From: a virus
Lineage: Duplodnaviria; Heunggongvirae; Uroviricota; Caudoviricetes
IMG/VR virus record: IMGVR_UViG_2874968258_000001
Coordinates: 1-61,666 of that record
Direction: 5' to 3' (one strand)
DNA length: 61,666 nt
The notes beneath the pieces are model-generated. The model was given only the letters and a program-made list of their open reading frames with translations, was not told where the DNA came from and searched no databases. Below, piece after piece: positions 1-60,429 of this stretch; positions within the stretch are counted from its first letter, which is position 1, and each line of letters opens with the position of its first letter. The translations under genes were made by a program, and so were the position numbers.

Positions 1-363
1 ATGCAGACGAAACAACGTCTTGATGTACCGCTGAGTCTGAAATCTGTCAGTGACTCCGGTGAGTTTGAAGGGTATGGCTCCGTCTTTGGTGTAAAGGACA
101 GCCACGATGATGTGGTGATGTCCGGGGCATTTGCTGCTTCCCTGCGGGCGTGGAGTGACAGAAAAGCGTTACCTGCGCTGCTCTGGCAGCACCGCATGGA
201 TGAACCCATCGGTGTTTACACCGAAATGAAGGAAGACGATGTCGGGCTTTACGTCAGGGGACGGTTGCTTATTGATGATGATCCCCTCGCAAAACGTGCA
301 CATGCACACATGAAGGCCGGTTCGTTAACCGGCCTTTCTATTGGGTACGTCCTGAAAGACTGA
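1..363 (+). pseudogene. HK97-family prohead (head maturation) protease, N-terminal ~120 aa only, truncated by IS insertion
   Basis: Translation carries prohead-protease-like motifs (EFEGYGSVFG, LLWQH, PIGVY, GLSIGY); the TGA stop at 361-363 is the first 3 nt of the IS left end; downstream head genes are absent. Confidence 0.6.
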
Positions 364-424
364 GGTAGCCTGAGTTTAACGGACGCTCCTTCCTGAAATA
401 GAATGGCATCAGAAGGAGCTAATA

Positions 425-727
425 ATGAGCAGAAAAACCCAACGTTACTCTAAAGAGTTCAAAGCCGAAGCTGTCAGAACGGTTCTTGAAAATCAACTTT
501 CGATCAGTGAAGGCGCTTCCCGATTATCTCTTCCTGAAGGCACTTTAGGACAATGGGTTACCGCCGCCAGAAAAGGGCTCGGTACTCCTGGTTCCCGCAC
601 GGTGGCTGAACTGGAATCTGAAATTCTGCAACTGCGTAAGGCGTTAAATGAAGCTCGCCTTGAGCGAGATATATTAAAAAAAGCAACAGCGTATTTTGCA
701 CAGGAGTCGCTGAAAAATACGCGTTAA
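425..727 (+). CDS. IS3-family transposase OrfA (HTH)
   Basis: 100-aa ORF MSRKTQRYSKEFKAEAV... with leucine-zipper-like C-terminus; A7 slippery run at 676-682 inside the ORF. Confidence 0.85.
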   Translation: MSRKTQRYSKEFKAEAVRTVLENQLSISEGASRLSLPEGTLGQWVTAARKGLGTPGSRTVAELESEILQLRKALNEARLERDILKKATAYFAQESLKNTR

Positions 728-762
728 TCGAACAATGGCGACAACAATTTCCCATTGAAGCG

Positions 763-1581
763 ATGTGTCAGGTATTTGGTGTATCCAGGAGCGGTTATTA
801 CAACTGGGTACAGCATGAACCCTCAGACAGAAAACAAAGTGATGAGCGGCTAAAACTGGAGATTAAGGTGGCACATATCCGCACTCGCGAAACATATGGA
901 ACCCGGCGGCTCCAGACGGAGCTGGCAGAGAATGGCATCATCGTTGGTCGTGACCGACTGGCACGTCTTCGTAAGGAGCTAAGGCTACGCTGTAAGCAGA
1001 AACGCAAGTTCAGAGCGACTACGAACTCGAACCACAATCTGCCAGTTGCGCCAAATCTGCTGAACCAGACGTTCGCTCCTACAGCACCAAATCAGGTCTG
1101 GGTGGCGGACCTGACGTATGTTGCCACACAGGAGGGATGGTTGTACCTCGCTGGCATCAAAGATGTTTATACGTGCGAAATTGTCGGCTACGCCATGGGA
1201 GAGCGCATGACAAAAGAGCTGACAGGTAAAGCCCTGTTTATGGCGCTCAGGAGCCAGCGCCCACCTGCCGGGCTAATCCACCACTCTGATCGAGGTTCAC
1301 AGTACTGCGCATACGATTACCGGGTCATACAGGAGCAGTCTGGTCTGAAAACATCAATGTCGCGTAAAGGTAACTGTTACGACAACGCTCCGATGGAAAG
1401 CTTCTGGGGAACGCTGAAAAATGAGAGCCTGAGCCACTATCGTTTTAATAACCGGGATGAAGCCATCTCAGTAATACGGGAATACATTGAGATTTTCTAC
1501 AATCGTCAGCGTCGTCACTCTCGTCTGGGGAATATCTCCCCGGCAGCCTTCAGGGAAAAATATCATCAGATGGCTGCTTAA
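763..1581 (+). CDS. IS3-family transposase OrfB (DDE catalytic domain), expressed as OrfAB by -1 frameshift
   Basis: 272-aa ORF in the -1 frame relative to OrfA; integrase-core-like motifs (WVADLTY, HSDRGSQY, NCYDNAPMESFWGTLK). Confidence 0.85.
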   Translation: MCQVFGVSRSGYYNWVQHEPSDRKQSDERLKLEIKVAHIRTRETYGTRRLQTELAENGIIVGRDRLARLRKELRLRCKQKRKFRATTNSNHNLPVAPNLLNQTFAPTAPNQVWVADLTYVATQEGWLYLAGIKDVYTCEIVGYAMGERMTKELTGKALFMALRSQRPPAGLIHHSDRGSQYCAYDYRVIQEQSGLKTSMSRKGNCYDNAPMESFWGTLKNESLSHYRFNNRDEAISVIREYIEIFYNRQRRHSRLGNISPAAFREKYHQMAA

Positions 1582-1643
1582 AAAAAGAACAAATGGTAGT
1601 GTCCGCTATTGCCAGTACACCTCAAGGATAAGGCTAAAAAATC

Positions 1644-3140
1644 ATGACGATAAGTTTTAATACTGTTCCGTCGAATACGCTGGTGCCGTTGTTCTACGCC
1701 GAGATGAACAATTCTGCGGCAAATACAGCGGTGACCAGCGCGCCTGCATTACTGATCGGGCATGCCAGCAACGATGCAGCCATTGAGGTTAACAGCCTGG
1801 TGCTGATGCCATCGGCAGATTATGCCCGCCAGATTTGTGGGGCGGGGAGCCAGCTGGCGCGTATGGTGGAAGTCTACCGTCAGACAGATCCTTTCGGTGA
1901 ACTGTATGTTATTGCAGTACCGGAAGCCAGAGGGGCGGCGGCGACGGTCAGGGTGACGGTTGCCGGAGAAGCAGAGGAAAGCGGCACCCTGAGTCTGTAT
2001 GTCGGGCGCTCCCGTGTACAGGTGCCTGTGGTGAATGGCGATGATGCCACTGCGGTTGCCACCGCGATTAAGGAAGCGGTAAACGGGGTTATCACCCTGC
2101 CGTTTACGGCGTCATCTGATGCAGGTGTGGTGACGCTGACTGCCCGTCATAAGGGGCTGTATGGTAATGAGTTACCGGTCTGTCTGAATTATTATGGTTC
2201 TGGTGGTGGTGAGATTCTGCCAGCAGGGCTTCGGGTGGTGACGGAAGTCGGTGCTGCCGGTAGCGGAGCGCCTGATCTTACCGCCGCTGTTGCTGCTATG
2301 GGCGATGAGGCATTCGACTTTATCGGTCTGCCGTTCAACGATGCCGCCTCCATCAATATGATGATGACCGAAATGAATGACAGCAGCGGTCGCTGGAGTT
2401 ATGCGCGCCAGTTATACGGGCATGTCTATACCGCAAAACTGGGAACGCTGTCAGAGCTGGTTGGTGCCGGAGATATGCATAATCAGCAACATATCACGCT
2501 TGCCGGTTACGAAAAAGAAACCCAGTCGCCTGTCGATGAACTGGTTGCCAGTCGCCTTGCCCGTGAAGCGGTATTTATCCGGAATGATCCTGCCCGTCCG
2601 ACACAGACGGGGGAGCTGGTGGGGATGCTTCCGGCACCGAAAGGTAAGCGATTCATCATGACAGAGCAGCAGACCCTTTTATCTCACGGCGTGGCGACGG
2701 CTTATGTGGAAGGCGGCACGTTGCAGATCCAGCGTTCCGTAACCACCTACAAAAAGAATGCGTATGGCGTGGCAGACAACAGCTATCTGGACAGTGAAAC
2801 TCTGCATACCAGTGCATATGTTCTTCGCAAACTGAAATCGGTCATCACAAGCAAGTACGGACGTCACAAGCTGGCAAATGATGGTACCCGTTTTGGTCCG
2901 GGGCAGGCGATTGTCACTCCTGCCGTTATCAAAGGGGAACTTCTGGCGACATATCGTCAGATGGAGCGTGCCGGTATTGTGGAAAATTACGATCTGTTTA
3001 AACAGTATCTGATAGTTGAGCGTGATGCAGATAACCCGAACCGACTGAATACGCTGTTCCCGCCGGATTATGTTAATCAGTTACGTGTCTTTGCGGTGGT
3101 TAACCAGTTCCGTCTTCAGTATTCAGAGGAGTCAGCATAA
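1644..3140 (+). CDS. Phage contractile tail sheath protein (Mu/SfV-like)
   Basis: 498-aa ORF with RBS, directly followed by tube and chaperone genes; sheath-like sequence by recollection. Confidence 0.7.
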   Translation: MTISFNTVPSNTLVPLFYAEMNNSAANTAVTSAPALLIGHASNDAAIEVNSLVLMPSADYARQICGAGSQLARMVEVYRQTDPFGELYVIAVPEARGAAATVRVTVAGEAEESGTLSLYVGRSRVQVPVVNGDDATAVATAIKEAVNGVITLPFTASSDAGVVTLTARHKGLYGNELPVCLNYYGSGGGEILPAGLRVVTEVGAAGSGAPDLTAAVAAMGDEAFDFIGLPFNDAASINMMMTEMNDSSGRWSYARQLYGHVYTAKLGTLSELVGAGDMHNQQHITLAGYEKETQSPVDELVASRLAREAVFIRNDPARPTQTGELVGMLPAPKGKRFIMTEQQTLLSHGVATAYVEGGTLQIQRSVTTYKKNAYGVADNSYLDSETLHTSAYVLRKLKSVITSKYGRHKLANDGTRFGPGQAIVTPAVIKGELLATYRQMERAGIVENYDLFKQYLIVERDADNPNRLNTLFPPDYVNQLRVFAVVNQFRLQYSEESA

Positions 3141-3496
3141 TGGCAAAGATCGCCGGAACCTGTTTTTTTAAAGTGGATGGTCAGCAGTTATCGCTGACAG
3201 GTGGCATTGAAGTGCCGATGAACACCAATGTCCGGGATGACATCGTCGGCATGGCAGGGGATGTGGATTACAAGGAGACCTGGCGGTCACCTTACGTTAA
3301 GGGCACGTTTAAAGTGCCCAAAAACTTTCCGGTCGACAAAATTACCACCTCAGACCAGATGACGATTACCGCTGAGCTGGCAAACGGCATGGTGTATGTG
3401 CTTTCGGCGGCATGGCTGCACGGAGAGGCTAATCATAATGCCGAAGAAGGCACGGCAGATCTTGAATTCCACGGCGAAGAGGGAGGGTATCAGTAA
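3140..3496 (+). CDS. Phage tail tube protein
   Basis: 118-aa ORF starting on the sheath stop, in canonical sheath-tube order. Confidence 0.65.
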   Translation: MAKIAGTCFFKVDGQQLSLTGGIEVPMNTNVRDDIVGMAGDVDYKETWRSPYVKGTFKVPKNFPVDKITTSDQMTITAELANGMVYVLSAAWLHGEANHNAEEGTADLEFHGEEGGYQ

Positions 3497-3923
3497 TGGC
3501 AATGAACGTTACAGAAATAGTTTTAAAAAAACCGGTGACAGCGCATAACGAAATGCTGCATGTGCTGGAGTTGCGCGAGCCCACGTATGACGAAATCGAG
3601 GCGCTGGGTTTTCCTTTCATTATTTCCGGTGAAGGCAGTATTAAACTGGACAGCCAGGTGGCACTGAAATATATCCCGTTGCTGGCGGGGATCCCGCGTT
3701 CATCGGCGGCGCAGATGGCAAAACTGGATATTTTTAAGACCAGCATGCAGATCCTGCGTTTTTTTACCCAGTCGGAGACGGGAAGCACCTCCGGAAACGA
3801 CTCTACAATGTTGCCTGGTTCTGGAAACTGAATCCACTGGAGCTGCGACGGGGGGCTGTTTCGCAGTTTACAGAACTGGAAGCCGAGGCCGTCCGCATTA
3901 ACGAGGAGATGAAGCATGGCTGA
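3496..3923 (+). CDS. Tail assembly chaperone; short form ends 3831, long form by programmed -1 frameshift at T7 run 3759-3765 and ends at 3923
   Basis: Slippery cgT TTT TTT aligned to the zero frame; the -1 frame stays open for ~53 codons (FFYPVGDGKHLRKRLYNVAWFWKLNPLELRRGAVSQFTELEAEAVRINEEMKHG) and ends just inside the tape measure start; position upstream of TMP is conserved in tailed phages. Confidence 0.55.
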
Positions 3924-5865
3924 CAGTTTTCAGCTGAAGGCGATCATCACTGCCGTGGATAAGGTATCGGCACCGCTGAAGGGAATGCAGCGCCAGCTGA
4001 AAGGTTTTAAAAAGGAGTTTGCCAGCCTGTTACTGGGCGCAGCGGGTGCCGGAACCGCAGTACTGGGGGCGCTGGCGCTCCCGGTCAAATCTGCCATTGC
4101 CCTTGAATCAAAAATGGCGGATGTCCGGAAAGTGGTGGATGGTCTGGATACGCCGGAAGCGTTTAAGGCAATGACGGAGCAGGTGCGCGACCTGTCAACA
4201 GAACTGCCCATGTCGGCGGAAGGTATCGCCGAAATTGTGGCGGCGGGTGGTCAGGCTGGTATCGCCCGTGACGAGCTGATGCAGTTTACTGACGATGCCG
4301 TGAAGATGGGCGTGGCCTTTGACACCACGGCAGAAGAATCCGGTCAGATGATGGCGCAGTGGCGCACTGCCTTTAAACTGACACAGGGAGAGGTGGCAGG
4401 GCTTGCGGATAAGATTAACTATCTTGGTAATACCGGTCCTGCAAGTGCGAAAAAGATTTCTGATGTTGTGACCCGTATTGGCCCTTTAGGCAGTGTTGCG
4501 GGTGTGGCCTCCGGAGAGATTGCCGCAATGGGGGCAACCATTGCCGGAATGGGGGTGGAGTCAGAAATTGCTGCGACGGGGATAAAGAATTTTATGTTGT
4601 CGCTGACAGCGAGGGATTCTGCCACCAAATCGCAGAAAAAAGTGCTCCGCTCGTTGCGCATTAGCCCGAAAAAACTGGCGGCGGATATGCAGAAAGACGC
4701 CCGCGGGGCCATGCTGCACGTACTGGATTCTCTGGCAAAAGTGCCGAAAGAAAAACAGGCTGCTGTGCTGAAAGCGCTGTTCGGGAAGGAATCCCTGGGG
4801 GCCATTGCGCCGCTGCTCACGAATCTGGATTTGTTGCGAACCAACTTTAATCGTGTGGCGGATGCGCAGCAGTATGGCGGCTCAATGCAGAAAGAATATG
4901 CCGCCCGTGCCGCGACGACAGAAAATCAGTTGTTGCTGCTGCAGAACCAGATCAATGCGATTTCTTCCACGCTGGGGGAAACCTTCCTGCCTTCACTCAA
5001 TGAAGGCATAAAAGAGATGAAGCCTTTTCTGGAAGAAGTGCGCACGTTTGTCAGAGAAAATCCTGAGGTCGTAAAAACCATCGCGAAAACTGGTGCGGCA
5101 TTACTGACGATGGGCGTGGCGATTGGCACATTGACACGCATAACAAAAATCATGGGTAGCGTGATGAATATGACGCCGGCAAAGGGATTAATTGCGCTTC
5201 TCGTCGGTGGTGCATATCTCATAATTGATAACTGGGAAACGGTCGGTCCGGTTGTGAAAAAAGTCTGGCAGGAGGTTGATCAGGTTGTCAGAGCAATGGG
5301 GGGATGGGAACAGGCAGTAAAAACAATAGCAACGGTTTCTGCCCTGTATATTGGTGTGAAGGCGGTGGCAAGTATTCGTGCGGCAACAGTCGCCCAGAAT
5401 CAATGGACAACGGCGGCAGGAAAAACAGGGCTGAAATTAAAGGGCCTCGGAAAGATCAGTCTGATTGGTGGATTGCTTGAACTGGGCATGATGGCGCAGG
5501 AGTTTGAAAAAGCACATCCCTGGCTTGTTAAAAATTTTGTGGCTGATGCACTGAACAGTGGATTTGGTCTGAATGATAAGTTCGACGAGTGGGGCAAACA
5601 GTTCCATGATTTTGTCTATGACATGACCGGATGGCAGATGCCACGTGGTGATGGGTATTTATCTCCCGATAAACGCTACACCCCGAATGTATCACTGGAA
5701 AGGAATCAGCTGTTAAGCCTTGCATCTTCACCGGCAACCCGCAGCGAACTTAAGGTGACGTTTGACAACGCGCCGCCTGGAATGCGCGTTATCGATTTGC
5801 CGAAAACAGGCGATCCCTTTATGAAAATCACCCATGATGTTGGGTATTCTCCATTTAAAAGGTGA
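3916..5865 (+). CDS. Tail tape measure protein
   Basis: 649-aa ORF, Ala/Gly-rich with predicted hydrophobic segments, located after the chaperone pair. Confidence 0.75.
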   Translation: MADSFQLKAIITAVDKVSAPLKGMQRQLKGFKKEFASLLLGAAGAGTAVLGALALPVKSAIALESKMADVRKVVDGLDTPEAFKAMTEQVRDLSTELPMSAEGIAEIVAAGGQAGIARDELMQFTDDAVKMGVAFDTTAEESGQMMAQWRTAFKLTQGEVAGLADKINYLGNTGPASAKKISDVVTRIGPLGSVAGVASGEIAAMGATIAGMGVESEIAATGIKNFMLSLTARDSATKSQKKVLRSLRISPKKLAADMQKDARGAMLHVLDSLAKVPKEKQAAVLKALFGKESLGAIAPLLTNLDLLRTNFNRVADAQQYGGSMQKEYAARAATTENQLLLLQNQINAISSTLGETFLPSLNEGIKEMKPFLEEVRTFVRENPEVVKTIAKTGAALLTMGVAIGTLTRITKIMGSVMNMTPAKGLIALLVGGAYLIIDNWETVGPVVKKVWQEVDQVVRAMGGWEQAVKTIATVSALYIGVKAVASIRAATVAQNQWTTAAGKTGLKLKGLGKISLIGGLLELGMMAQEFEKAHPWLVKNFVADALNSGFGLNDKFDEWGKQFHDFVYDMTGWQMPRGDGYLSPDKRYTPNVSLERNQLLSLASSPATRSELKVTFDNAPPGMRVIDLPKTGDPFMKITHDVGYSPFKR

Positions 5866-6097
5866 GTTCTTTTTTTGTGGTGAAAGATGAGGCAAAATTA
5901 TCGCGTAACATGCTAACAATGGAGTTTGTTTTGTGATAAAGCCATTTTTAATGACGGTTGCAATATTAACCTCTTGCTGTGCTCAGGCGAAAATACTAAC
6001 AAATGAGGAGATTGTTTCACGATTTATTAGTAACGTTAAAACGGTGATGCTGCCAACTTACTGATTTAGTGTATGATGGTGTTTTTGAGGTGCTCCA

Positions 6098-6373
6098 GTG
6101 GCTTCTGTTTCTATCAGCTGTCCCTCCTGTTCAGCTACTGACGGGGTGGTGCGTAACGGCAAAAGCACTGCCGGACATCAGCGCTATCTCTGCTCTCACT
6201 GCCGTAAAACATGGCAACTGCAGTTCACTTACACCGCTTCTCAACCCGGTACGCACCAGAAAATCATTGATATGGCCATGAATGGCGTTGGATGCCGGGC
6301 AACTGCACGCATTATGGGCGTTGGCCTCAACACGATTTTACGTCACTTAAAAAACTCAGGCCGCAGTCGGTAA
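6098..6373 (+). CDS. insA: IS1 InsA
   Basis: 91-aa [43 protein letters not shown]... Confidence 0.95.
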
Positions 6374-6795
6374 CCTCGCGCATACAGCCGGGCAGTGACG
6401 TCATCGTCTGCGCGGAAATGGACGAACAGTGGGGCTATGTCGGGGCTAAATCGCGCCAGCGCTGGCTGTTTTACGCGTATGACAGTCTCCGGAAGACGGT
6501 TGTTGCGCACGTATTCGGTGAACGCACTATGGCGACGCTGGGGCGTCTTATGAGCCTGCTGTCACCCTTTGACGTGGTGATATGGATGACGGATGGCTGG
6601 CCGCTGTATGAATCCCGCCTGAAGGGAAAGCTGCACGTAATCAGCAAGCGATATACGCAGCGAATTGAGCGGCATAACCTGAATCTGAGGCAGCACCTGG
6701 CACGGCTGGGACGGAAGTCGCTGTCGTTCTCAAAATCGGTGGAGCTGCATGACAAAGTCATCGGGCATTATCTGAACATAAAACACTATCAATAA
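6292..6795 (+). CDS. insB: IS1 InsB frame (made as InsAB' by -1 frameshift at the A6C motif)
   Basis: 167-aa ORF overlapping insA in the -1 frame; identical copy present in the second IS1. Confidence 0.9.
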
Positions 6796-7198
6796 GTTGG
6801 AGTCATTACCCGTTAAAACATCTGCAGATAATGACGTTGACTTGGATACAGATGGATTCAGACAACTGAGGATATCGTGCCCATCCCCTTCTGCCAGCGG
6901 TGCGATTATATTGAGAAAAGCTTCTTATGAATTCGGCAAAAGTATAGGTGTATTTGATTTTGCAAACAATGCATCACCAGCGACGATGACATTTTTGATC
7001 CCAATATATAAAGATGATGATTTTGATTCAGATACTGTTGGTTTTACATTTGCGTTCAAGATGCCAAGAGGCCAGTTTTTTGTAGATGTAAAAGAAAACG
7101 GGAATATCAGAGCTGGAGTTAATGTTAATGGCGAGTCGGGAGTGACCTACGAAAATTGCAAATTGAATATGAAAGATATTAATGATGATTAATATATA

Positions 7199-7226
7199 AG
7201 CCGCCAGAAATTGGCGGTTTTTTTAT
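7199..7226 (+). terminator. Rho-independent terminator after the disrupted lipoprotein gene
   Basis: Hairpin CCGCCAGAAATTGGCGG followed by T7. Confidence 0.6.
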
Positions 7227-7238
7227 AGTGGAGACAGT

Positions 7239-8630
7239 ATGGACTTACCTTCTTTACCTTCTCTTTCTTCACTCTTTTCTGCATCTTCAGGTATCAATTG
7301 GCGCGATAATCTTTACGACGCTTCATTTCGTGGCGTTCCGTTTTCGGTGGAGAGCGACGAGGGTTCGTTCGGACGCCGCGTTCAGGTCCATGAATACCCA
7401 AACCGTGACAAACCGTACACGGAAGATCTCGGGCGTGCCACGCGACGGCTGACGATTAATGCGTATCTCGTTGGTGATGATTACGCAGAGCAGCGCGACA
7501 GGCTGATTACAGCGATTGAAACCGCCGGGCCGGGGACGCTGATCCATCCGCAGTTCGGTGAAATGCAGGGCTGTATTGACGGGCAGGTGACCGTTTCTCA
7601 CTCCGGCACTGAAGGCCGTATGTGCCGGGTTTCATTTCAGTTTGTTGAGAGCGGGGAACTGTCATTTCCGGTCGCCGGAGCTGCAACCGCCAGAAAACTG
7701 GAGGAGTCGTCCGTATTCCTGGATGAGTTGATTGAAGACATGTTCGGCGATTTTGATCTCGCGGGAATACCGGACTTTATTCAGAACGATGTTATTGCCC
7801 GGACGACCGATATGCTGGGAACCGTTCAGACAGCTTTCAAAATGGTTAATTCGGCTGTTTCTGCCGGAGCGAGACTACTGCAGGGCGATTTATCCGTCAT
7901 TCTGATGCCGCCGTCGGTTGCCAGTGATTTTGTGCATACGTTGCAGGATACCTGGCGGGCCGGAACCCGGCTGGTGGATAACACACAGGATCTGGTGCAG
8001 TCCATAACGACAATGTCCGGCATTACGCTGGACCCAGGACTGGCACCGCGTGCGGTGTGGCCCACAGATTCCGCATCGGTTATCAGGCAAAAACAGCAGA
8101 CAAACCTTGTGGCTGCTGTCATCCGGACGACGGCAATCAGCGAAGCCACAAGGGCGGTCACTTCACTGCCACAACCCGGAAGCCTGGTGAAAAATCAGCA
8201 GGCGGTTGTGGCTGTTGGTGGTTCCACTGAACGTCAGTCCGATATTATTCACGTTTCTCATCCGGCACTTGACAGCGTGGCAGCCAGCACAGGACAGGAT
8301 GAGAGAGCGCAACCACCCACGCGGGAAAATCTCACCATCATACGCGAATCGCTGAACGCGGCGATTGAACAGGAGCTCAGGCGTACGGCGGATGACAGGC
8401 TGTTTTTTCAGCTGACGTCATTACGTACAGAACTGAACCGGGATATTCAGGCGCGTCTGGTTCAGACGGAGGAAACCGCAGAGCGAACGCCAGCGGAAGT
8501 TCTGCCTGCGCTTGTTCTGGCTGCGTCATGGTACGACGATGCGTCCCGTGAAACTGATATCCTGGATCGAAATGCCATCTCTCATCCGGGCTTTGTTCCG
8601 GTCAGGGCATTAAGGGTACCCGTCAGATGA
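7239..8630 (+). CDS. Mu gp43-like DNA circulation / tail protein
   Basis: 463-aa ORF between TMP and baseplate genes in Mu-like order. Confidence 0.65.
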   Translation: MDLPSLPSLSSLFSASSGINWRDNLYDASFRGVPFSVESDEGSFGRRVQVHEYPNRDKPYTEDLGRATRRLTINAYLVGDDYAEQRDRLITAIETAGPGTLIHPQFGEMQGCIDGQVTVSHSGTEGRMCRVSFQFVESGELSFPVAGAATARKLEESSVFLDELIEDMFGDFDLAGIPDFIQNDVIARTTDMLGTVQTAFKMVNSAVSAGARLLQGDLSVILMPPSVASDFVHTLQDTWRAGTRLVDNTQDLVQSITTMSGITLDPGLAPRAVWPTDSASVIRQKQQTNLVAAVIRTTAISEATRAVTSLPQPGSLVKNQQAVVAVGGSTERQSDIIHVSHPALDSVAASTGQDERAQPPTRENLTIIRESLNAAIEQELRRTADDRLFFQLTSLRTELNRDIQARLVQTEETAERTPAEVLPALVLAASWYDDASRETDILDRNAISHPGFVPVRALRVPVR

Positions 8631-9709
8631 ATGATACCGTTTTACTTCGGGTTTCCGGTCGCGAATGGGGCGGCTGGACATCCGTCCGTATCAGTGCGGG
8701 CATTAACCGTATTGCCCGGGATTTTAATGTTGCCATTACCACCCGCTGGCCCGGAAGCCGGGATTATCAACCCCGGATAAAAAATGGTGAGCTGGTTGAA
8801 GTGCTTATCGGGGATGAGCCTGTGCTCACCGGATATGTGGAGGCACTACCGCTTCGTTATGACGCCAGCAGCGTCAGCATGGGAATTGTCGGGCGAAGCA
8901 AAACAGCCGATCTGGTTGACTGCTCTGCTTTGCCACTCCAGCAGAGCGGAAAAAACCTGCTCAGAATAGTCAGTGAACTGGCTGCGCCATTTGGCATCAC
9001 CGTTGTTGATGCTGGCGTGCCGCAGACAGCGGTGATTGATGCCCAGCCGGAACACGGCGAAACCGTTGCCGATTGTCTTAACCGGTTACTGGGGCAGGTT
9101 CAGACGCTGGCTTATGACGATGAATGCGGGCGACTGGTTCTGGGAAAACCCGGAACAGGTAAAGCGGCGACGGCGCTGGTGCTGGTGCTGGGAGAGAATA
9201 TTCTTTCCTGTGACACGGAAAGAAGCATCAGAGAGCGGTTTTCTGAATATCAGGTCAGTGGGCAGCGCCCGGGCAACGACGATGATTTTGGTGAGGCCAC
9301 CATTGCCGCAATACGTCAGACCATTCAGGACAGTGGCGTGACCCGTTATCGCCCTTTGTTGATTCAGCAGTCAGGCACAGCAACGACAGCAACCTGTAAG
9401 GCCCGTTGTGAATTTGAAGCGCGCCAACGGGCTGCGCTTACCCGTGAGACAACATATACGGTTCAGGGCTGGCGGCAGGGCAGTGGCGCGTTATGGCGTC
9501 CGGGGTTATCTGTCATCGTTTTCGACCCGCTGAATAATTTTGATAATGATGAACTGGTGATCGCAGAAGTTACCTATAACCAGGACGACCGGGGCACGAC
9601 GACTGAATTACGGGTTGGCCCGGCAGATGCTTATCTCCCCGAGCCTGTTACCGCCAGGAAGAAAAAAATGTTGAGGAGGATTTCTGATGAACGGGTTTTC
9701 TCTTCGTAA
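8627..9709 (+). CDS. Mu gpP (gp44)-like baseplate hub protein
   Basis: 360-aa ORF overlapping the previous stop; position in baseplate cluster. Confidence 0.65.
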   Translation: MNDTVLLRVSGREWGGWTSVRISAGINRIARDFNVAITTRWPGSRDYQPRIKNGELVEVLIGDEPVLTGYVEALPLRYDASSVSMGIVGRSKTADLVDCSALPLQQSGKNLLRIVSELAAPFGITVVDAGVPQTAVIDAQPEHGETVADCLNRLLGQVQTLAYDDECGRLVLGKPGTGKAATALVLVLGENILSCDTERSIRERFSEYQVSGQRPGNDDDFGEATIAAIRQTIQDSGVTRYRPLLIQQSGTATTATCKARCEFEARQRAALTRETTYTVQGWRQGSGALWRPGLSVIVFDPLNNFDNDELVIAEVTYNQDDRGTTTELRVGPADAYLPEPVTARKKKMLRRISDERVFSS

Positions 9710-10220
9710 TCTGATTTCCCGGGCTGTCATCACGGCGGTGGATTCCGCCAGAAAGTGTCAGTCTGTAGGGTTGAAAATGATAGCCGGAGATCAGAAACAA
9801 CACGTTGAGCACCTTGAACCTTATGGTTTTACATCTGCCGCACAGAACGGTGCTGAGGGCGTTGCTTTATTTCCGGCGGGCGATCGTTCTCATGGTGTGG
9901 TTGTGGTCGTGGCTGACAGACGTTACCGGCTGAAAGGACTGAAACGTGGGGAAGTGGCGCTTTATGACGATCTGGGACAGTCCGTTGTCCTGACCCGTTC
10001 CGGTATTGTGGTGGACGGGGCCGGGAAGGCCATAATTTTTAAAAACGCGCCTAAAGCGCGCTTTGAAATGCCAGTCGAATCCACCGCCGATATTACTGAC
10101 AATTGCGACAGTGGCGGACTCAGCATGCAGCAAATGCGGCAGGCCTACAATGCCCACAAACATACCGAAAATGGTGATGGTGGCGGGATCACTGACACGC
10201 CGGATCAACCGATGGGCTGA
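9687..10220 (+). CDS. Baseplate assembly protein V-like (Mu gp45-like spike)
   Basis: 177-aa ORF in baseplate cluster. Confidence 0.6.
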   Translation: MNGFSLRNLISRAVITAVDSARKCQSVGLKMIAGDQKQHVEHLEPYGFTSAAQNGAEGVALFPAGDRSHGVVVVVADRRYRLKGLKRGEVALYDDLGQSVVLTRSGIVVDGAGKAIIFKNAPKARFEMPVESTADITDNCDSGGLSMQQMRQAYNAHKHTENGDGGGITDTPDQPMG

Positions 10221-10225
10221 AAATC

Positions 10226-10636
10226 ATGATGATTAATGTTAACGGGCGACCCGTGTCGACCGGGGCTTCGATCGACCTTCTGACGCGTGCTGTGATTATT
10301 TCGCTTTTTACATGGCGGCGTGCCGGGCGTGATGATGCACCACGGATATTTGGATGGTGGGGGGATACCTGGCCTGCGGTTCAGAATGATCGCACGGGGT
10401 CGCGTTTGTATCTGTTGCGACGCAGCAAGCTGACAAATAAAACCCCGCAGCTTGCCAGAGATTATGTCCGTGAGGCGCTGGCGTGGATGGTGGAGGATGG
10501 TGTTGCTTCCCGTCTTGATATTAACGCTGTCCGGACCGGGACAGACTCGCTGGCACTTGCCATTACCATTTACCAGCGTGACGGCAATATTCACAACATT
10601 ATTTTTGATGATATCTGGAGTGAACTGAATGGCTGA
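10226..10636 (+). CDS. Mu gp46-like baseplate protein (gp25/W-like)
   Basis: 136-aa ORF in baseplate cluster. Confidence 0.6.
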   Translation: MMINVNGRPVSTGASIDLLTRAVIISLFTWRRAGRDDAPRIFGWWGDTWPAVQNDRTGSRLYLLRRSKLTNKTPQLARDYVREALAWMVEDGVASRLDINAVRTGTDSLALAITIYQRDGNIHNIIFDDIWSELNG

Positions 10637-11237
10637 CAGTCAGTTTTATCGCCCCGGCCTCCCGCAACTTATTTCTATGATCCGGAGCGATTTATTAACC
10701 CGCTTTGAGCAGGATACGCTGCTTCGTCGTATGGATGCGGAAGTGTATGCCCGTGTACAGGCTGCAGCCGTACACACGTTGTACGGGTATATCGATTATC
10801 TTGCCAGAAATCTGTTACCGGACGTGTGTGATGAAGACTGGCTGTACCGGCACGCCAGAATCAAACGCTGCCCGCGAAAAGAAGCGGTGGCAGCCCGGGG
10901 ATTTGTGCGCTGGGATGGCGTAGAGGGGACGCCGGTATTGCCAGCGGGAACGCAGATCCAGCGTGATAATCAGGTGACCTTTACCACGACGGCGACGGTG
11001 ACCGCAGCCGATGGTCTTCTCCGGGTGCCTGTTGTGGCAGACGAACCGGGATCGGCGGGGAATACGGATGATGGTATTGCCATGCAACTGGGAACACCCG
11101 TCAGTGGTCTGCCGTCCACAGGGTACGCTGACACCATTACAGACGGTGAAGATATTGAAAATCTGGAAATATGGCGTGCCCGCGTTATGGAACGTTATTA
11201 CTACATTCCACAGGGGGGCGCAGGTAATGACTCCAAC

Positions 11238-11741
11238 TTATTGATAGTGTTTTATGTTCAGATAATGCCCGATGACTTTGTCATGCAGCTCCACCGATTT
11301 TGAGAACGACAGCGACTTCCGTCCCAGCCGTGCCAGGTGCTGCCTCAGATTCAGGTTATGCCGCTCAATTCGCTGCGTATATCGCTTGCTGATTACGTGC
11401 AGCTTTCCCTTCAGGCGGGATTCATACAGCGGCCAGCCATCCGTCATCCATATCACCACGTCAAAGGGTGACAGCAGGCTCATAAGACGCCCCAGCGTCG
11501 CCATAGTGCGTTCACCGAATACGTGCGCAACAACCGTCTTCCGGAGACTGTCATACGCGTAAAACAGCCAGCGCTGGCGCGATTTAGCCCCGACATAGCC
11601 CCACTGTTCGTCCATTTCCGCGCAGACGATGACGTCACTGCCCGGCTGTATGCGCGAGGTTACCGACTGCGGCCTGAGTTTTTTAAGTGACGTAAAATCG
11701 TGTTAAGGCCAACGCCCATAATGCGTGCAGTTGCCCGGCAT
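11238..11741 (-). CDS. insB: IS1 InsB frame
   Basis: Same translation as the first copy; ORF track shows the part from an internal Met (11238..11615). Confidence 0.85.
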
Positions 11742-11935
11742 CCAACGCCATTCATGGCCATATCAATGATTTTCTGGTGCGTACCGGGTTGAGAAGCGGT
11801 GTAAGTGAACTGCAGTTGCCATGTTTTACGGCAGTGAGAGCAGAGATAGCGCTGATGTCCGGCAGTGCTTTTGCCGTTACGCACCACCCCGTCAGTAGCT
11901 GAACAGGAGGGACAGCTGATAGAAACAGAAGCCAC
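11660..11935 (-). CDS. insA: IS1 InsA
   Basis: Identical 91-aa InsA translation on minus strand. Confidence 0.95.
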
Positions 11936-12487
11936 TGGAGCACCTCAAAAACACCATCATACACTAAATCAGTAAGTTGGCAGCATCACCGGGGGCGCAG
12001 ACCCTGATTATGTTATCTGGGCGAAAGAAGTTCAGGGTATTAACCGTGCATGGACTTTCAGACACTGGAAAGGCACTGGAACGGTTGGCGTGATGGTGGC
12101 GACAAACGATCCGGAACGCCCGGCCCCGGATGAAAGCGTGATTAACGCAGTCAGGGACCACATCCTTCCTCTGGCACCTGTTGCCGGAAGCGGATTGTAT
12201 GTATTCGGTGCCACAGAAAAAGTCATCCCGATGACGATTGCATTATCGAAAGACACACCGCAGATCAGGACTGCAATAAAAGCAGAGCTGAATGCACTGA
12301 TGTTACGGGATGGTGTGCCAGAGGGGCGTATGTATCTGTCCAGAATCAGTGAGGCCATCAGTTTGTCTGCTGGTGAAGTGGCCCACCGGTTAATCGTCCC
12401 TTCATCGGATATTGACCTGGGGGAGACCGAGCTTCCGGTGCTCGGCGAGATCACCTGGCAGGCTTATGACCCGGCAAGGAGTAAATA

Positions 12488-13078
12488 ATGGATTCGTTAC
12501 AGGATGATTATACAAAGCTGCTGTACGGACTGATGCCGCCGGGGCCTGCATGGTCAGATACCGACGGTGTACTTGACGGTCTGGCACCATCGCTTGTGCG
12601 TGTTCACCAGCGGGCTGATGAACTGGTGATTGAAATCGATCCCGGTCAGTCCACAGAGCTGATTGAACGTTATGAAGAATTGTATGGTTTACCTGATTCC
12701 TGTTCCCCTGTCGGAACCCAGACATTACGCCAGCGTCAGCAACGTCTTGAAGCAAAAGCCAATGTGGCTGGTGGCATAAATGAGCAGTTCTTCCTGGATC
12801 AGCTTGAGGCGCTGGGATATACCGGCGTAACGATCGAACAGTTCCAGCACTTGGATGCAAGCCCCGATCCGGAATGGGGAGATCGCTGGCGTTATTTCTG
12901 GCGTGTGACGTTGCCGATGGATGCCGGTGCTCAGTGGCAGACATGCACGGACGCCTGCAACACACCGATCCGGACGTGGGGGGATACGGTTGCGGAGTGC
13001 GTGATTAATAAATTATGTCCGTCACACACCGTCGTTTTATTTTCCTATCCAGATGAGGATGAAGATGCACAGGATTGA
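12488..13078 (+). CDS. Mu gp48-like tail protein (YmfQ/DUF2313-like)
   Basis: 196-aa ORF between baseplate J and tail fibre. Confidence 0.6.
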   Translation: MDSLQDDYTKLLYGLMPPGPAWSDTDGVLDGLAPSLVRVHQRADELVIEIDPGQSTELIERYEELYGLPDSCSPVGTQTLRQRQQRLEAKANVAGGINEQFFLDQLEALGYTGVTIEQFQHLDASPDPEWGDRWRYFWRVTLPMDAGAQWQTCTDACNTPIRTWGDTVAECVINKLCPSHTVVLFSYPDEDEDAQD

Positions 13079-14105
13079 TACGCTGACTGCGGTAAAAGAT
13101 AAGTTTGGTCCGGGTAAGAACGGATTTACTGACGGAAATCTTCGCACAGGACGTCTTGCTACCTGGCTGAACAGTGCCATGTGGAATGCCATTCAGGAGG
13201 AAATCTGTGGTGTCATTGAGAAGGCCGGGATAGAACTGAATAAAGAAGAACACGACCAGCTATATAAGGCTATATTATTGCTGGTGGGCGGTGCAATTAA
13301 CGAAGAGGCATTGCTGATAAAAAATAACCTTTCGGATGTGGAAGACAGGGATGAGGCTGTTGAAAACCTCGGATTAAAACCCACGGTGGATAAGGCAAAA
13401 AATGCCGTTCAGCGTGATGGCGACACCATGACCGGAGAGCTGAAAATCCGTGGTGTTAATGCGCTGAGGATTTTCAACGAAGCTTTTGGCCTGATTTTTC
13501 GTCGTTCGGAAGAGTGCCTGCACCTTATTCCCACCAGTGAAGGTCAGGGGGAAAATGGCGATATTGGTCCCCTGCGCCCGTTCACCATTAATCTGCGGAC
13601 GGGTGAAATATCCATGTCGCATAAAGTGTCTGTTGGCGGTGGTTCGCAGGTCAATGGTGCGCTGGGTATCGGCGTTCAGAACGCCCTGGGGGGGAATTCA
13701 ATTGTTCTTGGTGATAATGACACCGGATTCAAACAGAATGGTGATGGCCTGCTGGATGTTTATGCCAATAGCGTGCATGTGTTGCGTTTTCAGAGTGGCA
13801 GTATCCAGAGTAATAAAGCTGTAAACGTTACAGGACGGGTAACACCGTCAGACTACGGAAACTTTGATGCCCGTTACCAGCAGCGAAATGGTGGCGTGCA
13901 GGATGTGCGGTATGGTTATGAAATGTATTACACCCCCGGCAGTAACACCGTTTCGTGGACATTTCGCTCACCTTCGGGACACGGGCTGTCAGGGATATCG
14001 ATATCGGATACCGGCCGTAACTCAGCGGATAACGTCAACGGCGTGTATTACCGACCGCTGCAAAAACTGATTAATGGCACCTGGTATAACGTAGCGAGTA
14101 TTTAA
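13065..14105 (+). CDS. Tail fibre protein
   Basis: ~347-aa ORF, Gly/Asn/Ser-rich C-terminal region, followed by a tfa-type gene. Confidence 0.65.
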   Translation: MHRIDTLTAVKDKFGPGKNGFTDGNLRTGRLATWLNSAMWNAIQEEICGVIEKAGIELNKEEHDQLYKAILLLVGGAINEEALLIKNNLSDVEDRDEAVENLGLKPTVDKAKNAVQRDGDTMTGELKIRGVNALRIFNEAFGLIFRRSEECLHLIPTSEGQGENGDIGPLRPFTINLRTGEISMSHKVSVGGGSQVNGALGIGVQNALGGNSIVLGDNDTGFKQNGDGLLDVYANSVHVLRFQSGSIQSNKAVNVTGRVTPSDYGNFDARYQQRNGGVQDVRYGYEMYYTPGSNTVSWTFRSPSGHGLSGISISDTGRNSADNVNGVYYRPLQKLINGTWYNVASI

Positions 14106-14107
14106 CA

Positions 14108-14653
14108 ATGTTGCATTTAAAAAATATTACGGCAGGTAATCCGAAAACCGCGGAATAATATCAGCTGACAAAACAGTATGATGTCACCTGGCTTTTTTCG
14201 GAAGACGGCAAAAACTGGTATGAAGAACAGAAGAACTTTGCCAGTGACACCATAAAAATGGTTTACACCGGAGACGGGCGCGTGGTGTGGGTCGGTAAGG
14301 ATGTGACAGGCATTGAACCCCGTAACGCCAGTGTTATTGAAGTTCCTGATATTACCGCCAACCGCCGCATTACCGCGCCGGGTTACTGGTTTTACCGCAA
14401 TGATGAATTTGTCTTTGACTACAGACTCAAAGCGGAAGATGAGCGTGATGCCCTTCTGGCTCAGGTCAGTGCCCGGACAGGGGAATGGGAAGAAGACCTG
14501 CTGCTGGGGCTAATCAGCGACGAAGACCGGGAAAAACTGAAAGCGTACCGTATTTACGCGAAATCGCTGCAGGCGATGGATTTCAGCACCATCACTGATA
14601 AATCCTCATATAACGCCATTGAATGGTCCGTCTCTCCGGAAGGTTCTTCCTGA
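14108..14653 (+). pseudogene. Tail fibre assembly protein with in-frame ochre stop at codon 17 (14156-14158)
   Basis: ATG 14108 gives MLHLKNITAGNPKTAE-stop-YQLTKQYDVTWLFSEDGKNWYEE...; the frame is continuous with the annotated ORF 14258..14653. Confidence 0.55.
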
Positions 14654-14676
14654 TTTAATTTATCGCGAGAAAAACT

Positions 14677-15945
14677 ATGTCTGTAGTGATATCAGGTGCG
14701 CTGACTGATGGCGCAGGCATCCCCATGTCCGGATGCCAGATTATTCTGAAATCCCGTGTAAACACCTCAGAAGTGGTGATGCGTACCAGGGCTGATGTAG
14801 TGACCGGAAATAACGGTGAATATTCGTTTGAGGCACAGGTCGGAAAATATTGCGTGTATCTGAAACGGGACTGGCGCGACGAGTACTGTGTTGGCGACAT
14901 TGCTGTATACGACGACTCAAAGCCCGGCACGCTGAATGACTTTCTGATTGCTCCTGATGAGGGCGACCTGAAACCGGATGTCGTCAAACGCTTTGAGGAA
15001 ATGGTGGCGCAGGCGCAGCAGAGCGCCGGGGCCGCAGCCGGAAACGCACAGCAGACGGCGCAGGATGTGGCGGCAGCCGCAGGTTATGCCCGCGCAGCAG
15101 AGCAGGCCAAAAATGACATTGATGCTGCGCTGACCGGCACTCTGAAAACGGCTAACCATCTGTCTGAAATCGCAGCAGCAGGCGAAAAGGCACAACAGAA
15201 GTCCCGGGATAATCTGGGGCTGAAAAGTGCGGCCACGATGGAAGCACAGAGCGACATTTACGACCGGACAAAAGGCCGTCTGGCGATACCCGGCGCATTC
15301 GGCTTTGGGTGTGCTTTTCTGCCTGAAGATGTTATCCGTTTTGACACTAAGAGTGATTTCCTGGCCTGGGTAAGGAATGCGCTGCCAGGTGAATATTCCG
15401 TTGCTGGCCCCTACGACATCATCATACCCGACACACGGTTTGAAGGGGTGCTCAGCATCCGGTGGACTGATGCACGCCCTGAGACAACAGAACCGAGGTA
15501 CAGAGCCAAATCCCTTACTTTTTACGGCATTAACGGCCCCATTTATCACACCCGCTACTGCTACTGGCCCATATCCAGACTGACTGGCTGGGTGAAAATA
15601 AATATAACCACAGAAGATATTATTTACAGAATCGTGGCGAGCTCTGTCTGCAACAGATGGGGAGACCCTGACATTGGCGGGCTGATTATTGCTGCGTACC
15701 AGGGAGAAGCTGACGGTGATAAAGTCATCAGACTTGTCAGGGGGCAGTCATACAGAGGCTCACGACTGGGACCGGTGGGGATTTCAGTGCCCAGTACTCC
15801 CACCGGAACGTATATAGCATCCCCACAATTTTTCATTACGGGATGTTCAGAGCATTCATTACCGGGGTCATATAGCGCCCTGTCCGGGGTGCCGGATGCT
15901 CATGTCTCTGGCGCAATGCCCGGGCTTTTTATTCGCACATCGTGA
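14677..15945 (+). CDS. Side tail fibre protein with lambda Stf-like N-terminal domain and a different C-terminal domain
   Basis: N-terminus MSVVISGALTDGAGIPMSGCQIILKSR...[13 protein letters not shown] parallels the stf gene at 54196 ([27 protein letters not shown]...[13 protein letters not shown]). Confidence 0.65.
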   Translation: MSVVISGALTDGAGIPMSGCQIILKSRVNTSEVVMRTRADVVTGNNGEYSFEAQVGKYCVYLKRDWRDEYCVGDIAVYDDSKPGTLNDFLIAPDEGDLKPDVVKRFEEMVAQAQQSAGAAAGNAQQTAQDVAAAAGYARAAEQAKNDIDAALTGTLKTANHLSEIAAAGEKAQQKSRDNLGLKSAATMEAQSDIYDRTKGRLAIPGAFGFGCAFLPEDVIRFDTKSDFLAWVRNALPGEYSVAGPYDIIIPDTRFEGVLSIRWTDARPETTEPRYRAKSLTFYGINGPIYHTRYCYWPISRLTGWVKINITTEDIIYRIVASSVCNRWGDPDIGGLIIAAYQGEADGDKVIRLVRGQSYRGSRLGPVGISVPSTPTGTYIASPQFFITGCSEHSLPGSYSALSGVPDAHVSGAMPGLFIRTS

Positions 15946-15955
15946 GGAATGCACC

Positions 15956-16519
15956 GTGGAAATTAAAAAAATCATTAATCCCCGTTATACCGAAAGTGGC
16001 GCAGTAGACTGTGACGTTTTTTTTGACGACAGGGACCTGGCAGTCCCCTACACAGCCACCGCTGATGATGTCGCACCGACGGGTCAGCAAATCTGGCAGG
16101 AACTGCAAAGTGGCAAATGGGGTGAGATAGCCCCATTCACTGTGACACCAGAAATGCTGGAAGCGGCCAGAGAGGCCAGACGTCAGGAAATTGAAGCATG
16201 GCGCACAGAACAGGAGGCGAAGCCGTTCACGTTTGAATGGAATGGTCGTATCTGGAATGCTGGCCCCGACTCACTGGGCCGCCTGTCCCCGGTAGTCATG
16301 CTGGCAAAATCTGTCACAGCACAAACGCATATGGCGTGGGGTGATGCCGATAATCAGCAGGTGAAACTGTCGATGCCGGAACTGGAAGAACTGGCGGCAG
16401 CAATGGTGCAGGCGCAGGTCGATCGCAACGATGAGATTTATCGCCGTCAGCGTGAAATGAAAGAGGAGCTGAGTGGTCTGGAGGATTTGGGAACAATTAG
16501 AGCGTTTGATGTTACGTAA
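15956..16519 (+). CDS. Putative tail fibre assembly / chaperone protein
   Basis: GTG start with GAGGA 8 nt upstream, immediately after the stf-like stop; family assignment uncertain. Confidence 0.4.
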   Translation: MEIKKIINPRYTESGAVDCDVFFDDRDLAVPYTATADDVAPTGQQIWQELQSGKWGEIAPFTVTPEMLEAAREARRQEIEAWRTEQEAKPFTFEWNGRIWNAGPDSLGRLSPVVMLAKSVTAQTHMAWGDADNQQVKLSMPELEELAAAMVQAQVDRNDEIYRRQREMKEELSGLEDLGTIRAFDVT

Positions 16520-16565
16520 TTGGTAAGCTGCATCGTGTTAAATTGTTACCCTTATTTACAACTAG

Positions 16566-16600
16566 AAAAGCCTCTGACTTCATAATCAGAGGCTTTTTTG
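16566..16600 (+). terminator. Rho-independent terminator
   Basis: AAAAGCCTCTGA...TCAGAGGCTTTTTT hairpin plus T-run. Confidence 0.65.
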
Positions 16601-16727
16601 AAATGCACGTGCATTTTGCGTGTATATTTTTGTCTTTTTCTGGTCCGCTTACTGTCTGGTCAGTGTCCGTAAGTGACTGTTTTTATAGTCTCTGTCCGGT
16701 TGCAGTCCTGTCAAAAGTGGTGGAGCT

Positions 16728-60423: not shown

Positions 60424-60429
60424 GAACAT

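What the first reader, a model, noticed from the sequence alone, without database searches (positions are those of the whole stretch)
361..1624. IS600-like element truncates the prohead protease and replaces the rest of the head module
The protease ORF stops on the first TGA of the IS. The 3 bp on each side differ (GAC vs AGG), so there is no target duplication, and the next gene is the tail sheath. Capsid and connector genes are missing, consistent with an IS-mediated adjacent deletion. The left element cannot form a head.
Basis: partly seen in the sequence, partly recalled or inferred. Interest (0 to 1): 0.45.

Follow-up and report, generated by a model that had tools for sequence, protein, structure and literature searches.

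The report
IS600-linked deletion in decayed Shigella prophage
A complete copy of the insertion sequence IS600 sits exactly where 3.5 kb of head and neck genes have been lost from a defective phiP27-like prophage of Shigella sonnei, which is an ordinary example of how insertion sequences erode prophages in Shigella.

Summary
Window 361-1624 is a full 1264-bp IS600. It is one base off the consensus of 11 copies, has the same ends as four annotated E. coli copies, and has intact orfA, orfB and frameshift site. Its flanks are GAC and AGG, so there is no 3-bp target duplication, although three of the four E. coli copies and both IS1 copies in the window have clean duplications.

The left flank is the first 120 of 216 codons of an HK97-type prohead protease. 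The right flank starts 19 bp before the tail sheath gene. Both flanks are 100% identical to a single continuous prophage in E. coli FDAARGOS_944. That reference, a second genome and phage phiP27 show that 3511 bp (3509 in phiP27) are missing exactly at the IS: the protease 3' part, capsid, connector, head closure, a 174-aa neck protein, tail terminator and most of a DUF2635 gene. None of these occurs elsewhere in the window or in the 10 kb upstream.

The junction is fixed in S. sonnei. An IS4 lies 90 bp upstream of the window, so portal and terminase are gone from this locus too.

Transposase-driven adjacent deletion cannot be separated from recombination between two IS600 copies. Known phenomenon, low interest.

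The parts
1..360 (+). 5' 360 bp (codons 1-120 of 216) of an HK97-type prohead protease gene. The ORF runs to 363 by borrowing the TGA of the IS. Bases 1-23 also overlap the last codons of the portal gene.
   Evidence: Pfam PF04586 at 6.9e-21 over profile positions 6-115/165. TIGR01543 at 7.9e-32 over positions 1-100/142. 100% identical to L001 14001-14362, annotated as HK97 family prohead protease of 216 aa.
361..1624 (+). Complete IS600 (IS3 family), 1264 bp, in the same orientation as the phage late genes. It has no 3-bp target duplication (GAC on the left, AGG on the right).
   Evidence: Same ends and length as four annotated E. coli IS600 copies, at 99.6-99.8% identity, and three of those four have 3-bp duplications. 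One difference from the consensus of 11 copies.
361..400 (+). Left terminal inverted repeat region of IS600 (TGAGGTAGCCTGAGTTTAACGGACGCTCC...). It carries the copy-specific A-to-G change at IS position 25, which is window 385.
   Evidence: Alignment of the two ends and comparison of copies.
425..727 (+). IS600 orfA (100 aa, HTH_Tnp_1), with the A7G programmed -1 frameshift motif at 676-683.
   Evidence: PGAP annotates the E. coli copies as 'programmed frameshift'.
763..1581 (+). IS600 orfB (DDE/rve catalytic domain). The reading frame is open, and upstream of the first ATG it continues into the frameshift region.
   Evidence: Pfam rve 8.7e-26, rve_3, rve_2 and HTH_21. Frame translation.
1585..1624 (+). 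Right terminal inverted repeat region of IS600 (...GGTAGTGTCCGCTATTGCCAGTACACCTCA).
1625..1647 (+). Last 23 bp of the DUF2635 gene (162 bp in intact relatives). This includes the ribosome-binding region of the sheath gene.
   Evidence: Window 1625 corresponds to L001 17872, and DUF2635 is annotated at L001 17733-17894.
1644..3140 (+). Intact tail sheath gene (498 aa), the first gene after the IS.
   Evidence: Pfam Phage_sheath_1, Phage_sheath_1C and Phage_sheath_domII. The identical protein is listed in 4015 blocks of the public collection; the 30 contigs read include S. flexneri and S. sonnei.
3140..16520 (+). Rest of the Mu-type contractile tail module: tube, chaperone, tape measure, DNA circulation protein, baseplate genes and fibres. 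It is collinear with the FDAARGOS_944 prophage except for two IS1 insertions.
6043..6810 (+). IS1 simple insertion with a 9-bp target duplication CGTTAAAAC (6034-6042 and 6811-6819). It serves as an internal control for what an undisturbed insertion looks like.
11223..11991 (-). Second IS1, inverted, which splits the baseplate J gene. It has a 9-bp target duplication (GGGGGCGCAG is repeated, with one base ambiguous).

Best explanation
A phiP27-like prophage of the Shigella sonnei ancestor received one IS600 insertion. The site was either in the protease gene (target GAC) or 19 bp before the sheath gene inside DUF2635 (target AGG). Later the IS600 transposase joined one end of that resident copy to a second site 3.5 kb away on the same molecule. 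This is a transposase-driven adjacent deletion. The IS was kept and the 3511 bp between the two sites were lost, along with one copy of the 3-bp duplication.

The result is a protease ORF cut at codon 120 that ends on the TGA of the IS. The capsid, connector, head-closure, neck, tail-terminator and DUF2635 genes are gone. The sheath gene now follows the IS directly.

Shown: the identity and boundaries of the IS, the absence of a duplication, the exact size and content of the missing segment, and its fixation in S. sonnei. Inferred: the order of events and the involvement of the transposase. The broader statement, that this is an IS600-mediated deletion by this route or by the two-copy route listed as rival 1, I hold at about 0.9.
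For: - Both flanks are 100% identical to, and collinear with, one uninterrupted prophage. Window 1-362 matches L001 14001-14362 and window 1625-2097 matches L001 17872-18344. The missing interval starts and ends exactly at the IS ends.
- The interval has the same size in a second genome (L019, 3511 bp) and in phage phiP27 (3509 bp).
- The IS is full length with canonical ends but has no duplication. Three of four E. coli IS600 copies have 3-bp duplications and both IS1 copies in the same remnant have 9-bp duplications.
- The identical truncated protease followed by IS600 and the sheath gene is present in all 27 contigs read, including complete S. sonnei chromosomes. L004 is S. sonnei AR-0030.
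- In S. flexneri, a different IS600 copy in the sister remnant is seen both as a simple insertion with an ATG duplication (L024, L026) and as a one-sided deletion with the same right junction (L017, L018, L020, L023). The process is therefore documented in this prophage family.
- In the Lenski experiment, all 14 IS-associated deletions involved IS150 (IS3 family), none had a duplication, and all were preceded by an IS at the same position. Fusing orfA and orfB of IS3-family elements raises adjacent deletions (PMC11708052).
Against: - The end product is identical to that of recombination between two directly repeated IS600 copies, and nothing in the sequence separates the two routes.
- No precursor genome with IS600 at only one of the two sites was found.
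- IS3-family elements mainly move by copy-out and paste-in through a circle. That mode favours a new nearby copy followed by recombination over a classical one-step adjacent deletion.
- The S. flexneri comparison is easier to explain if a second IS600 copy once existed there.
Confidence: 0.5

Rival explanations
1. Two independent IS600 insertions in the same orientation, one in the protease gene (duplicating GAC) and one in DUF2635 (duplicating AGG), were followed by RecA-dependent recombination between the two 1264-bp copies. This excised the 3.5 kb plus one IS as a circle that was lost. It left one hybrid IS flanked by the left flank of the first copy and the right flank of the second.
For: - It predicts exactly the observed structure: an intact IS, GAC on the left, AGG on the right, and collinear flanks.
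- IS600 is one of five IS expanded in all Shigella species, with high recent activity in S. sonnei. Deletions between homologous IS copies are the standard explanation in Shigella (PMC7373316).
- In S. flexneri, the two states of the sister remnant cannot be derived from one another. L018 keeps 2 bp of ISSfl3 that L024 lacks, and L024 keeps 1.6 kb of phage DNA that L018 lacks. This is most simply explained by an ancestor with two IS600 copies.
Against: No genome with either single insertion or with both insertions was seen among the 27 and 30 contigs read, or in 5426 E. coli genomes. It needs three events instead of two.
Confidence: 0.4
2. The 3.5 kb were lost first, or at the same moment, by a break or illegitimate recombination unrelated to IS600. 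IS600 then entered the break or junction without making a target duplication. This follows the proposal made for IS5 and IS481 in PMC11708052.
For: Absence of a duplication is compatible with it. The hypothesis exists in the literature. There are 2 bp (TG) of shared sequence at the left junction.
Against: A normal insertion into an older deletion junction would leave a 3-bp duplication, and none is present. Insertion into breaks without a duplication has not been shown for IS3-family elements. All 14 IS150 cases in the same paper were explained as adjacent deletions. The 2-bp match is expected by chance once in 16.
Confidence: 0.05
3. The junction is not a real deletion. It is either an assembly mis-join across a repeated IS, or an IS600-mediated rearrangement that moved the head genes elsewhere in the genome.
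For: S. sonnei chromosomes are heavily rearranged at IS copies. The IS4 junction just upstream is such a rearrangement point, with bamD placed next to a portal gene fragment.
Against: The same structure occurs in many independently assembled complete chromosomes. Both flanks keep their native order and orientation, and recombination between copies within one prophage produces that arrangement only by deletion. The segment has no DNA or protein match in the 61.7-kb window or in the 10 kb upstream.
Confidence: 0.03

Closest known systems
IS600 (IS3 family) of Shigella and E. coli
   Same: 1264 bp, with TG...CA ends and imperfect terminal inverted repeats. It has orfA and orfB with an A7G -1 frameshift site and an rve (DDE) catalytic domain. 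Identity to annotated copies is 99.6-99.8%, with one base off the consensus.
   Different: This copy lacks the 3-bp target duplication and carries a private A25G change in the left inverted repeat.
Stx2e phage phiP27 and the phiP27-like, ipaH-associated prophages of Shigella and E. coli FDAARGOS_944
   Same: Same gene order: portal, HK97-type protease, capsid, adaptor, head closure, neck, tail terminator, DUF2635, sheath, tube and a Mu-type baseplate. Identity is 94.4% to phiP27 over the head-to-sheath segment and 98-100% to the FDAARGOS_944 prophage across the flanks and tail module.
   Different: The S. sonnei copy lacks 3511 bp between protease codon 120 and the end of DUF2635. It lacks everything upstream of the last 90 bp of the portal gene (IS4 junction). 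It also has two IS1 insertions in the tail module. It cannot be a functional phage.
IS150-associated deletions in the E. coli long-term evolution experiment (PMC11708052)
   Same: An IS3-family element is kept at the deletion junction, there is no target duplication, and the deletion is anchored at an IS end.
   Different: In that experiment the precursor insertions were observed directly in earlier time points. Here no precursor genome was found.
   Same: Related HK97-type portal, protease and capsid genes, about 89-90% identical over the first 1860 bp, and a contractile tail.
   Different: Similarity at the megablast level stops after the capsid gene. These phages are more distant references than phiP27. 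SfV itself was not listed among the rows shown, and e14 was not tested.

Membership tests
IS600 / IS3 family insertion sequence | Length about 1.26 kb with TG...CA termini and imperfect terminal inverted repeats | tested here: met
   1264 bp. Its ends are identical to those of four annotated IS600 copies. The inverted-repeat alignment shows 6 of the first 6 bases and 18 of the first 28 bases matching.
IS600 / IS3 family insertion sequence | High nucleotide identity to annotated IS600 copies | tested here: met
   99.6-99.8% over all 1264 bp against PGAP-annotated IS600 copies. One mismatch to the consensus of 11 copies. The ISfinder reference itself was not available.
IS600 / IS3 family insertion sequence | Two overlapping ORFs (orfA with a helix-turn-helix, orfB with the DDE/rve domain) joined by a programmed -1 frameshift | tested here: met
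   Pfam HTH_Tnp_1 in orfA, and HTH_21, rve, rve_3 and rve_2 in orfB. A7G motif at 676-683 with the orfB frame open across it. Frameshifting itself is not testable here.
IS600 / IS3 family insertion sequence | 3-bp direct target duplication at a simple insertion | tested here: not met
   The flanks are GAC and AGG. This is a property of the insertion event, not of the element. Its absence is what marks a secondary rearrangement.
IS-mediated deletion (adjacent deletion or recombination between IS copies) | Both flanks collinear with an intact reference, with the missing interval beginning and ending exactly at the IS ends | tested here: met
   L001 14361-17871 is missing and both flanks are 100% identical. 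The same holds in L019 and in phiP27.
IS-mediated deletion (adjacent deletion or recombination between IS copies) | A precursor state exists, with the IS and a target duplication at one or both breakpoints | tested here: inconclusive
   None was found in 5426 E. coli genomes or in the contigs read. Exact-junction scans of two collections were negative, but the positive control was negative too.
HK97-family prohead protease (Peptidase S78, TIGR01543) | Full-length match to the family profile | tested here: not met
   Only profile positions 6-115 of 165 (Pfam) and 1-100 of 142 (TIGR01543) are present, which is 120 of 216 residues. It is a gene fragment.
phiP27-like prophage | Collinear late-gene order with high nucleotide identity | tested here: met
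   The reference head-to-sheath segment of FDAARGOS_944 (L001 14001-18344) is 94.4% identical to phiP27. The window's own sheath region (1625-3200) is 96.6% identical to phiP27. Window 1625-16520 is collinear with the FDAARGOS_944 prophage at 97.6-100%.

The most novel reading that the evidence does not exclude
IS600 did not first insert and then delete. Instead it was captured, without any target duplication, into the double-strand break that created the 3.5-kb deletion. This would be an example from natural populations of the break-insertion route proposed for IS5 and IS481 in PMC11708052, extended to a true IS3-family element.
Probability: 0.04. Interest if true: 0.35.

Novelty: already known. 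Interest (0 to 1): 0.08.

Why it matters
It matters little beyond annotation.

- The locus should be annotated as a dead prophage remnant, and the 120-codon ORF as a protease pseudogene.
- It gives a cleanly sized example (3511 bp, with exact breakpoints) of IS-driven prophage decay in S. sonnei.
- Together with the S. flexneri states of the sister remnant, it could be used to ask which route IS600 uses to make deletions: transposase-driven or recombination between copies.
- The junction is fixed in S. sonnei and could serve as a lineage marker.

Tried and rejected
- Boundary shift to rescue a target duplication. This was rejected. Four reference copies fix the ends at 361 and 1624, and no 2- to 4-bp shift gives matching flanks.
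- Head genes elsewhere. blastn of the 3511-bp segment and tblastn of its eight proteins against the whole window and the 10 kb upstream found only the 120-codon protease fragment and the 29-codon portal tail. The head genes at 35-41 kb belong to a separate lambdoid prophage with its own integrase. They are of different families: lambda-type portal, ClpP-capsid fusion and gpA terminase.
- Search for precursor states. There was no E. coli genome with a place covering the left flank plus the IS, or the IS plus the right flank. All contigs read that carry the truncated protease have the final structure. Exact scans for the two predicted precursor junctions in genome contigs and metagenome contigs gave nothing. 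The real junctions also gave nothing there, so these scans are uninformative.
- An outward promoter at the right IS end that could drive the sheath gene. The consensus scan found none. The only promoter-like site is the IS's own at 376-404, and it is not above the shuffled expectation.
- Fetching CP065611 as an annotated record. It is not in the collection.

Full report
**What is at 361-1624.** The stretch is 1264 bp. It begins TGAGGTAGCC and ends CACCTCA. It encodes a 100-aa orfA (425-727, Pfam HTH_Tnp_1) and an orfB (763-1581; HTH_21, rve, rve_3, rve_2). An A7G slippery motif at 676-683 lies where the orfB frame is already open. Four E. coli elements that PGAP annotates as 'IS3-like element IS600 family transposase, programmed frameshift' have exactly the same first and last bases and the same length, and are 99.6-99.8% identical. 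Against a consensus of 11 copies from E. coli, S. flexneri and S. sonnei, the window copy differs at one position, A25G inside the left inverted repeat.

**Target duplication.** Three of the four E. coli copies are flanked by perfect 3-bp repeats (AAG, AGA, AGC). The fourth sits in a nest of IS fragments and has none. The window copy has GAC on the left and AGG on the right. No shift of the boundary rescues a repeat. The only ambiguity is that the first two IS bases (TG) also match the intact phage sequence at that point, which is a 1-in-16 coincidence. As an internal control, both IS1 copies in the same prophage remnant (6043-6810 and 11223-11991) have clean 9-bp duplications, and the phage sequence is continuous across them.

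**The flanks.** ORF 1-363 is the first 120 codons of an HK97-type prohead protease. It matches Pfam S78 positions 6-115 of 165 and TIGR01543 positions 1-100 of 142. It ends on the TGA that opens the IS. The full-length protein in relatives is 216 aa. Downstream, 19 bp separate the IS from the ATG of a 498-aa tail sheath gene. Bases 1625-1647 are the last 23 bp of a 162-bp DUF2635 gene.

**Sizing the loss.** Both flanks are 100% identical to one prophage of E. coli FDAARGOS_944. Window 1-362 matches L001 14001-14362 and window 1625-2097 matches L001 17872-18344. The interval in between, L001 14361-17871, is 3511 bp. It holds:

- the protease 3' 291 bp
- the major capsid gene
- the head-tail connector
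- the head closure protein
- a 174-aa protein that phiP27 annotation calls tail completion/Neck1
- the tail terminator
- 139 of the 162 bp of DUF2635

A second genome with an uninterrupted head module (L019, CP065611.1) gives the same 3511 bp. The functional Stx2e phage phiP27 is the nearest sequenced phage, at 94.4% over the whole 4.3-kb segment, and gives 3509 bp. SfI, SfII, SfIV and ST64B match only the protease and capsid genes, at about 89-90%. 'SfV-like' is therefore a fair but looser description.

**Are the lost genes elsewhere?** I compared the 3511-bp segment by blastn, and its proteins by tblastn, against the whole 61.7-kb window and the 10 kb upstream of it in an identical genome. 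These searches found only the protease fragment and a 29-codon portal tail. The head genes at 35-41 kb (gpA terminase, lambda-type portal, ClpP-capsid fusion) belong to a separate lambdoid prophage. That prophage begins at about 16.7 kb and has its own integrase at 18194-19369.

**Organism and distribution.** The exact 120-aa truncated protein is indexed in 674 blocks of the public collection. All 27 contigs read show protease fragment, IS600 and sheath in that order, many of them on complete 4.8-5.0 Mb chromosomes. L004 (CP032523.1) is identical to the window over 10.3 kb and is S. sonnei AR-0030. L022 (CP044151.1) is S. sonnei AR-0426. No complete E. coli genome of the 5426 searched has either junction. 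The event therefore appears fixed in S. sonnei and is not an assembly artefact.

**Context outside the window.** In these genomes a 1426-bp IS4 (L004 8485-9910) lies 90 bp upstream of window position 1. It has no target duplication, and bamD, rluD, yfiH and clpB lie on its other side. Only 450 bp of the head module survive, namely 90 bp of portal plus 360 bp of protease, stranded between two IS that lack duplications. The remnant cannot make a head. It also lacks a tail terminator, and its baseplate J gene is split by IS1, so it is not a working tail machine either.

**Mechanism.** The structure is the textbook signature of an IS-mediated deletion: an intact IS, no duplication, collinear flanks, and a missing interval that starts and stops at the IS ends. 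Two routes give this same product.

- Route (a): one insertion is followed by transposase-driven joining of an IS end to a nearby site (adjacent deletion).
- Route (b): two insertions in direct orientation are followed by homologous recombination between them.

Literature on a sister IS3-family element supports (a). All 14 IS150-associated deletions in three Lenski populations lacked duplications and were preceded by an IS at the same site, and fusing orfA and orfB raises adjacent deletions (PMC11708052). The Shigella literature usually invokes (b), and IS600 is one of five IS expanded in every Shigella species (PMC7373316).

A natural parallel exists in S. flexneri, where the identical sheath gene sits in a sister remnant. 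In FDAARGOS_535 (L026) and in L024, another IS600 copy lies in the tail-terminator gene with an ATG duplication and with the connector genes upstream. In ATCC 29903 and G1663 (L018, L023) the same right junction is kept, but the left flank is a truncated ISSfl3 and 1.6 kb are gone. This shows insertion first and one-sided loss later in this prophage family. Neither state can be derived from the other, which hints at a lost second IS600 copy and so at route (b) in that case.

I could not find a precursor for the S. sonnei event. Exact-junction scans were negative, but so was the positive control. My estimates are:

| Explanation | Probability |
|---|---|
| Route (a), adjacent deletion | about 0.5 |
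| Route (b), two-copy recombination | about 0.4 |
| Insertion into a break without duplication | about 0.05 |
| Rearrangement or artefact | about 0.03 |

1. The reference phage is phiP27-like.
2. The loss includes neck and tail-terminator genes.
3. The mechanism is not uniquely 'adjacent deletion'.
4. The head module is also cut from the other side by IS4.

IS-driven decay of prophages in Shigella is well known, so this is an ordinary, already-known kind of feature.

Noticed in passing
L004 8485-9910 (90 bp upstream of window position 1, outside the window): A complete IS4 (1426 bp, 18-bp inverted repeats) without its usual target duplication joins the bamD-rluD-yfiH-clpB region to the last 90 bp of the phage portal gene. 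The whole early, lysis, terminase and portal part of the prophage is therefore absent from this locus. This is probably an IS4-mediated rearrangement point.
   Followed up: partly
window 6043-6810 and 11223-11991: Two IS1 copies in inverted orientation, each a simple insertion with a 9-bp duplication. One interrupts a 160-aa hypothetical gene between the tape measure and DNA-circulation genes. The other splits the baseplate J gene. The segment between them is not inverted relative to FDAARGOS_944.
   Followed up: yes
L018 6187-6240, L024 4586-4665, L029 2880-2970: In the S. flexneri sister remnant, the truncated ISSfl3 ends at ...GATGACACTC next to IS600 in strains ATCC 29903 and G1663. In FDAARGOS_535 and CP097831 it ends at ...GATGACAC next to a capsid 3' fragment. 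The two breakpoints are 2-4 bp apart, yet neither state can be derived from the other. A lost IS600 copy inside ISSfl3 would explain both states, but this is unproven.
   Followed up: partly
window 385: This IS600 copy has G where ten copies at other sites (four in E. coli and six in S. flexneri) have A, at IS position 25 inside the left inverted repeat. The change is shared by the same copy in other S. sonnei genomes. Whether it affects transposase binding is unknown.
   Followed up: partly
window about 16700-58600: A separate lambdoid prophage lies directly next to the remnant. It has an integrase at 18194-19369 on the minus strand, gpA-type terminase, lambda-type portal, a ClpP-capsid fusion, a lambda-type tape measure and tip attachment protein J. 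It appears far more complete than the left element.
   Followed up: partly
window 16520-16720 compared with NZ_CP065613.1 622592-625543: In FDAARGOS_944 and S. flexneri the remnant ends with an ipaH effector gene and a methyltransferase gene. In the window the similarity stops at 16520, after the DUF4376 fibre gene, and the neighbouring prophage follows, so ipaH is not at this position.
   Followed up: partly
window 16828-17646 (- strand): A 271-aa ORF has no Pfam or NCBIfam match. It lies beside the integrase of the lambdoid prophage and is annotated as a hypothetical protein in E. coli genomes.
   Followed up: partly
window 58948-61666: A cytosine-5 DNA methyltransferase (491 aa, with the DNA_meth_N domain) lies convergent with an EcoRII-type restriction endonuclease (EcoRII-N and EcoRII-C domains) at the right edge of the window.
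   Followed up: no
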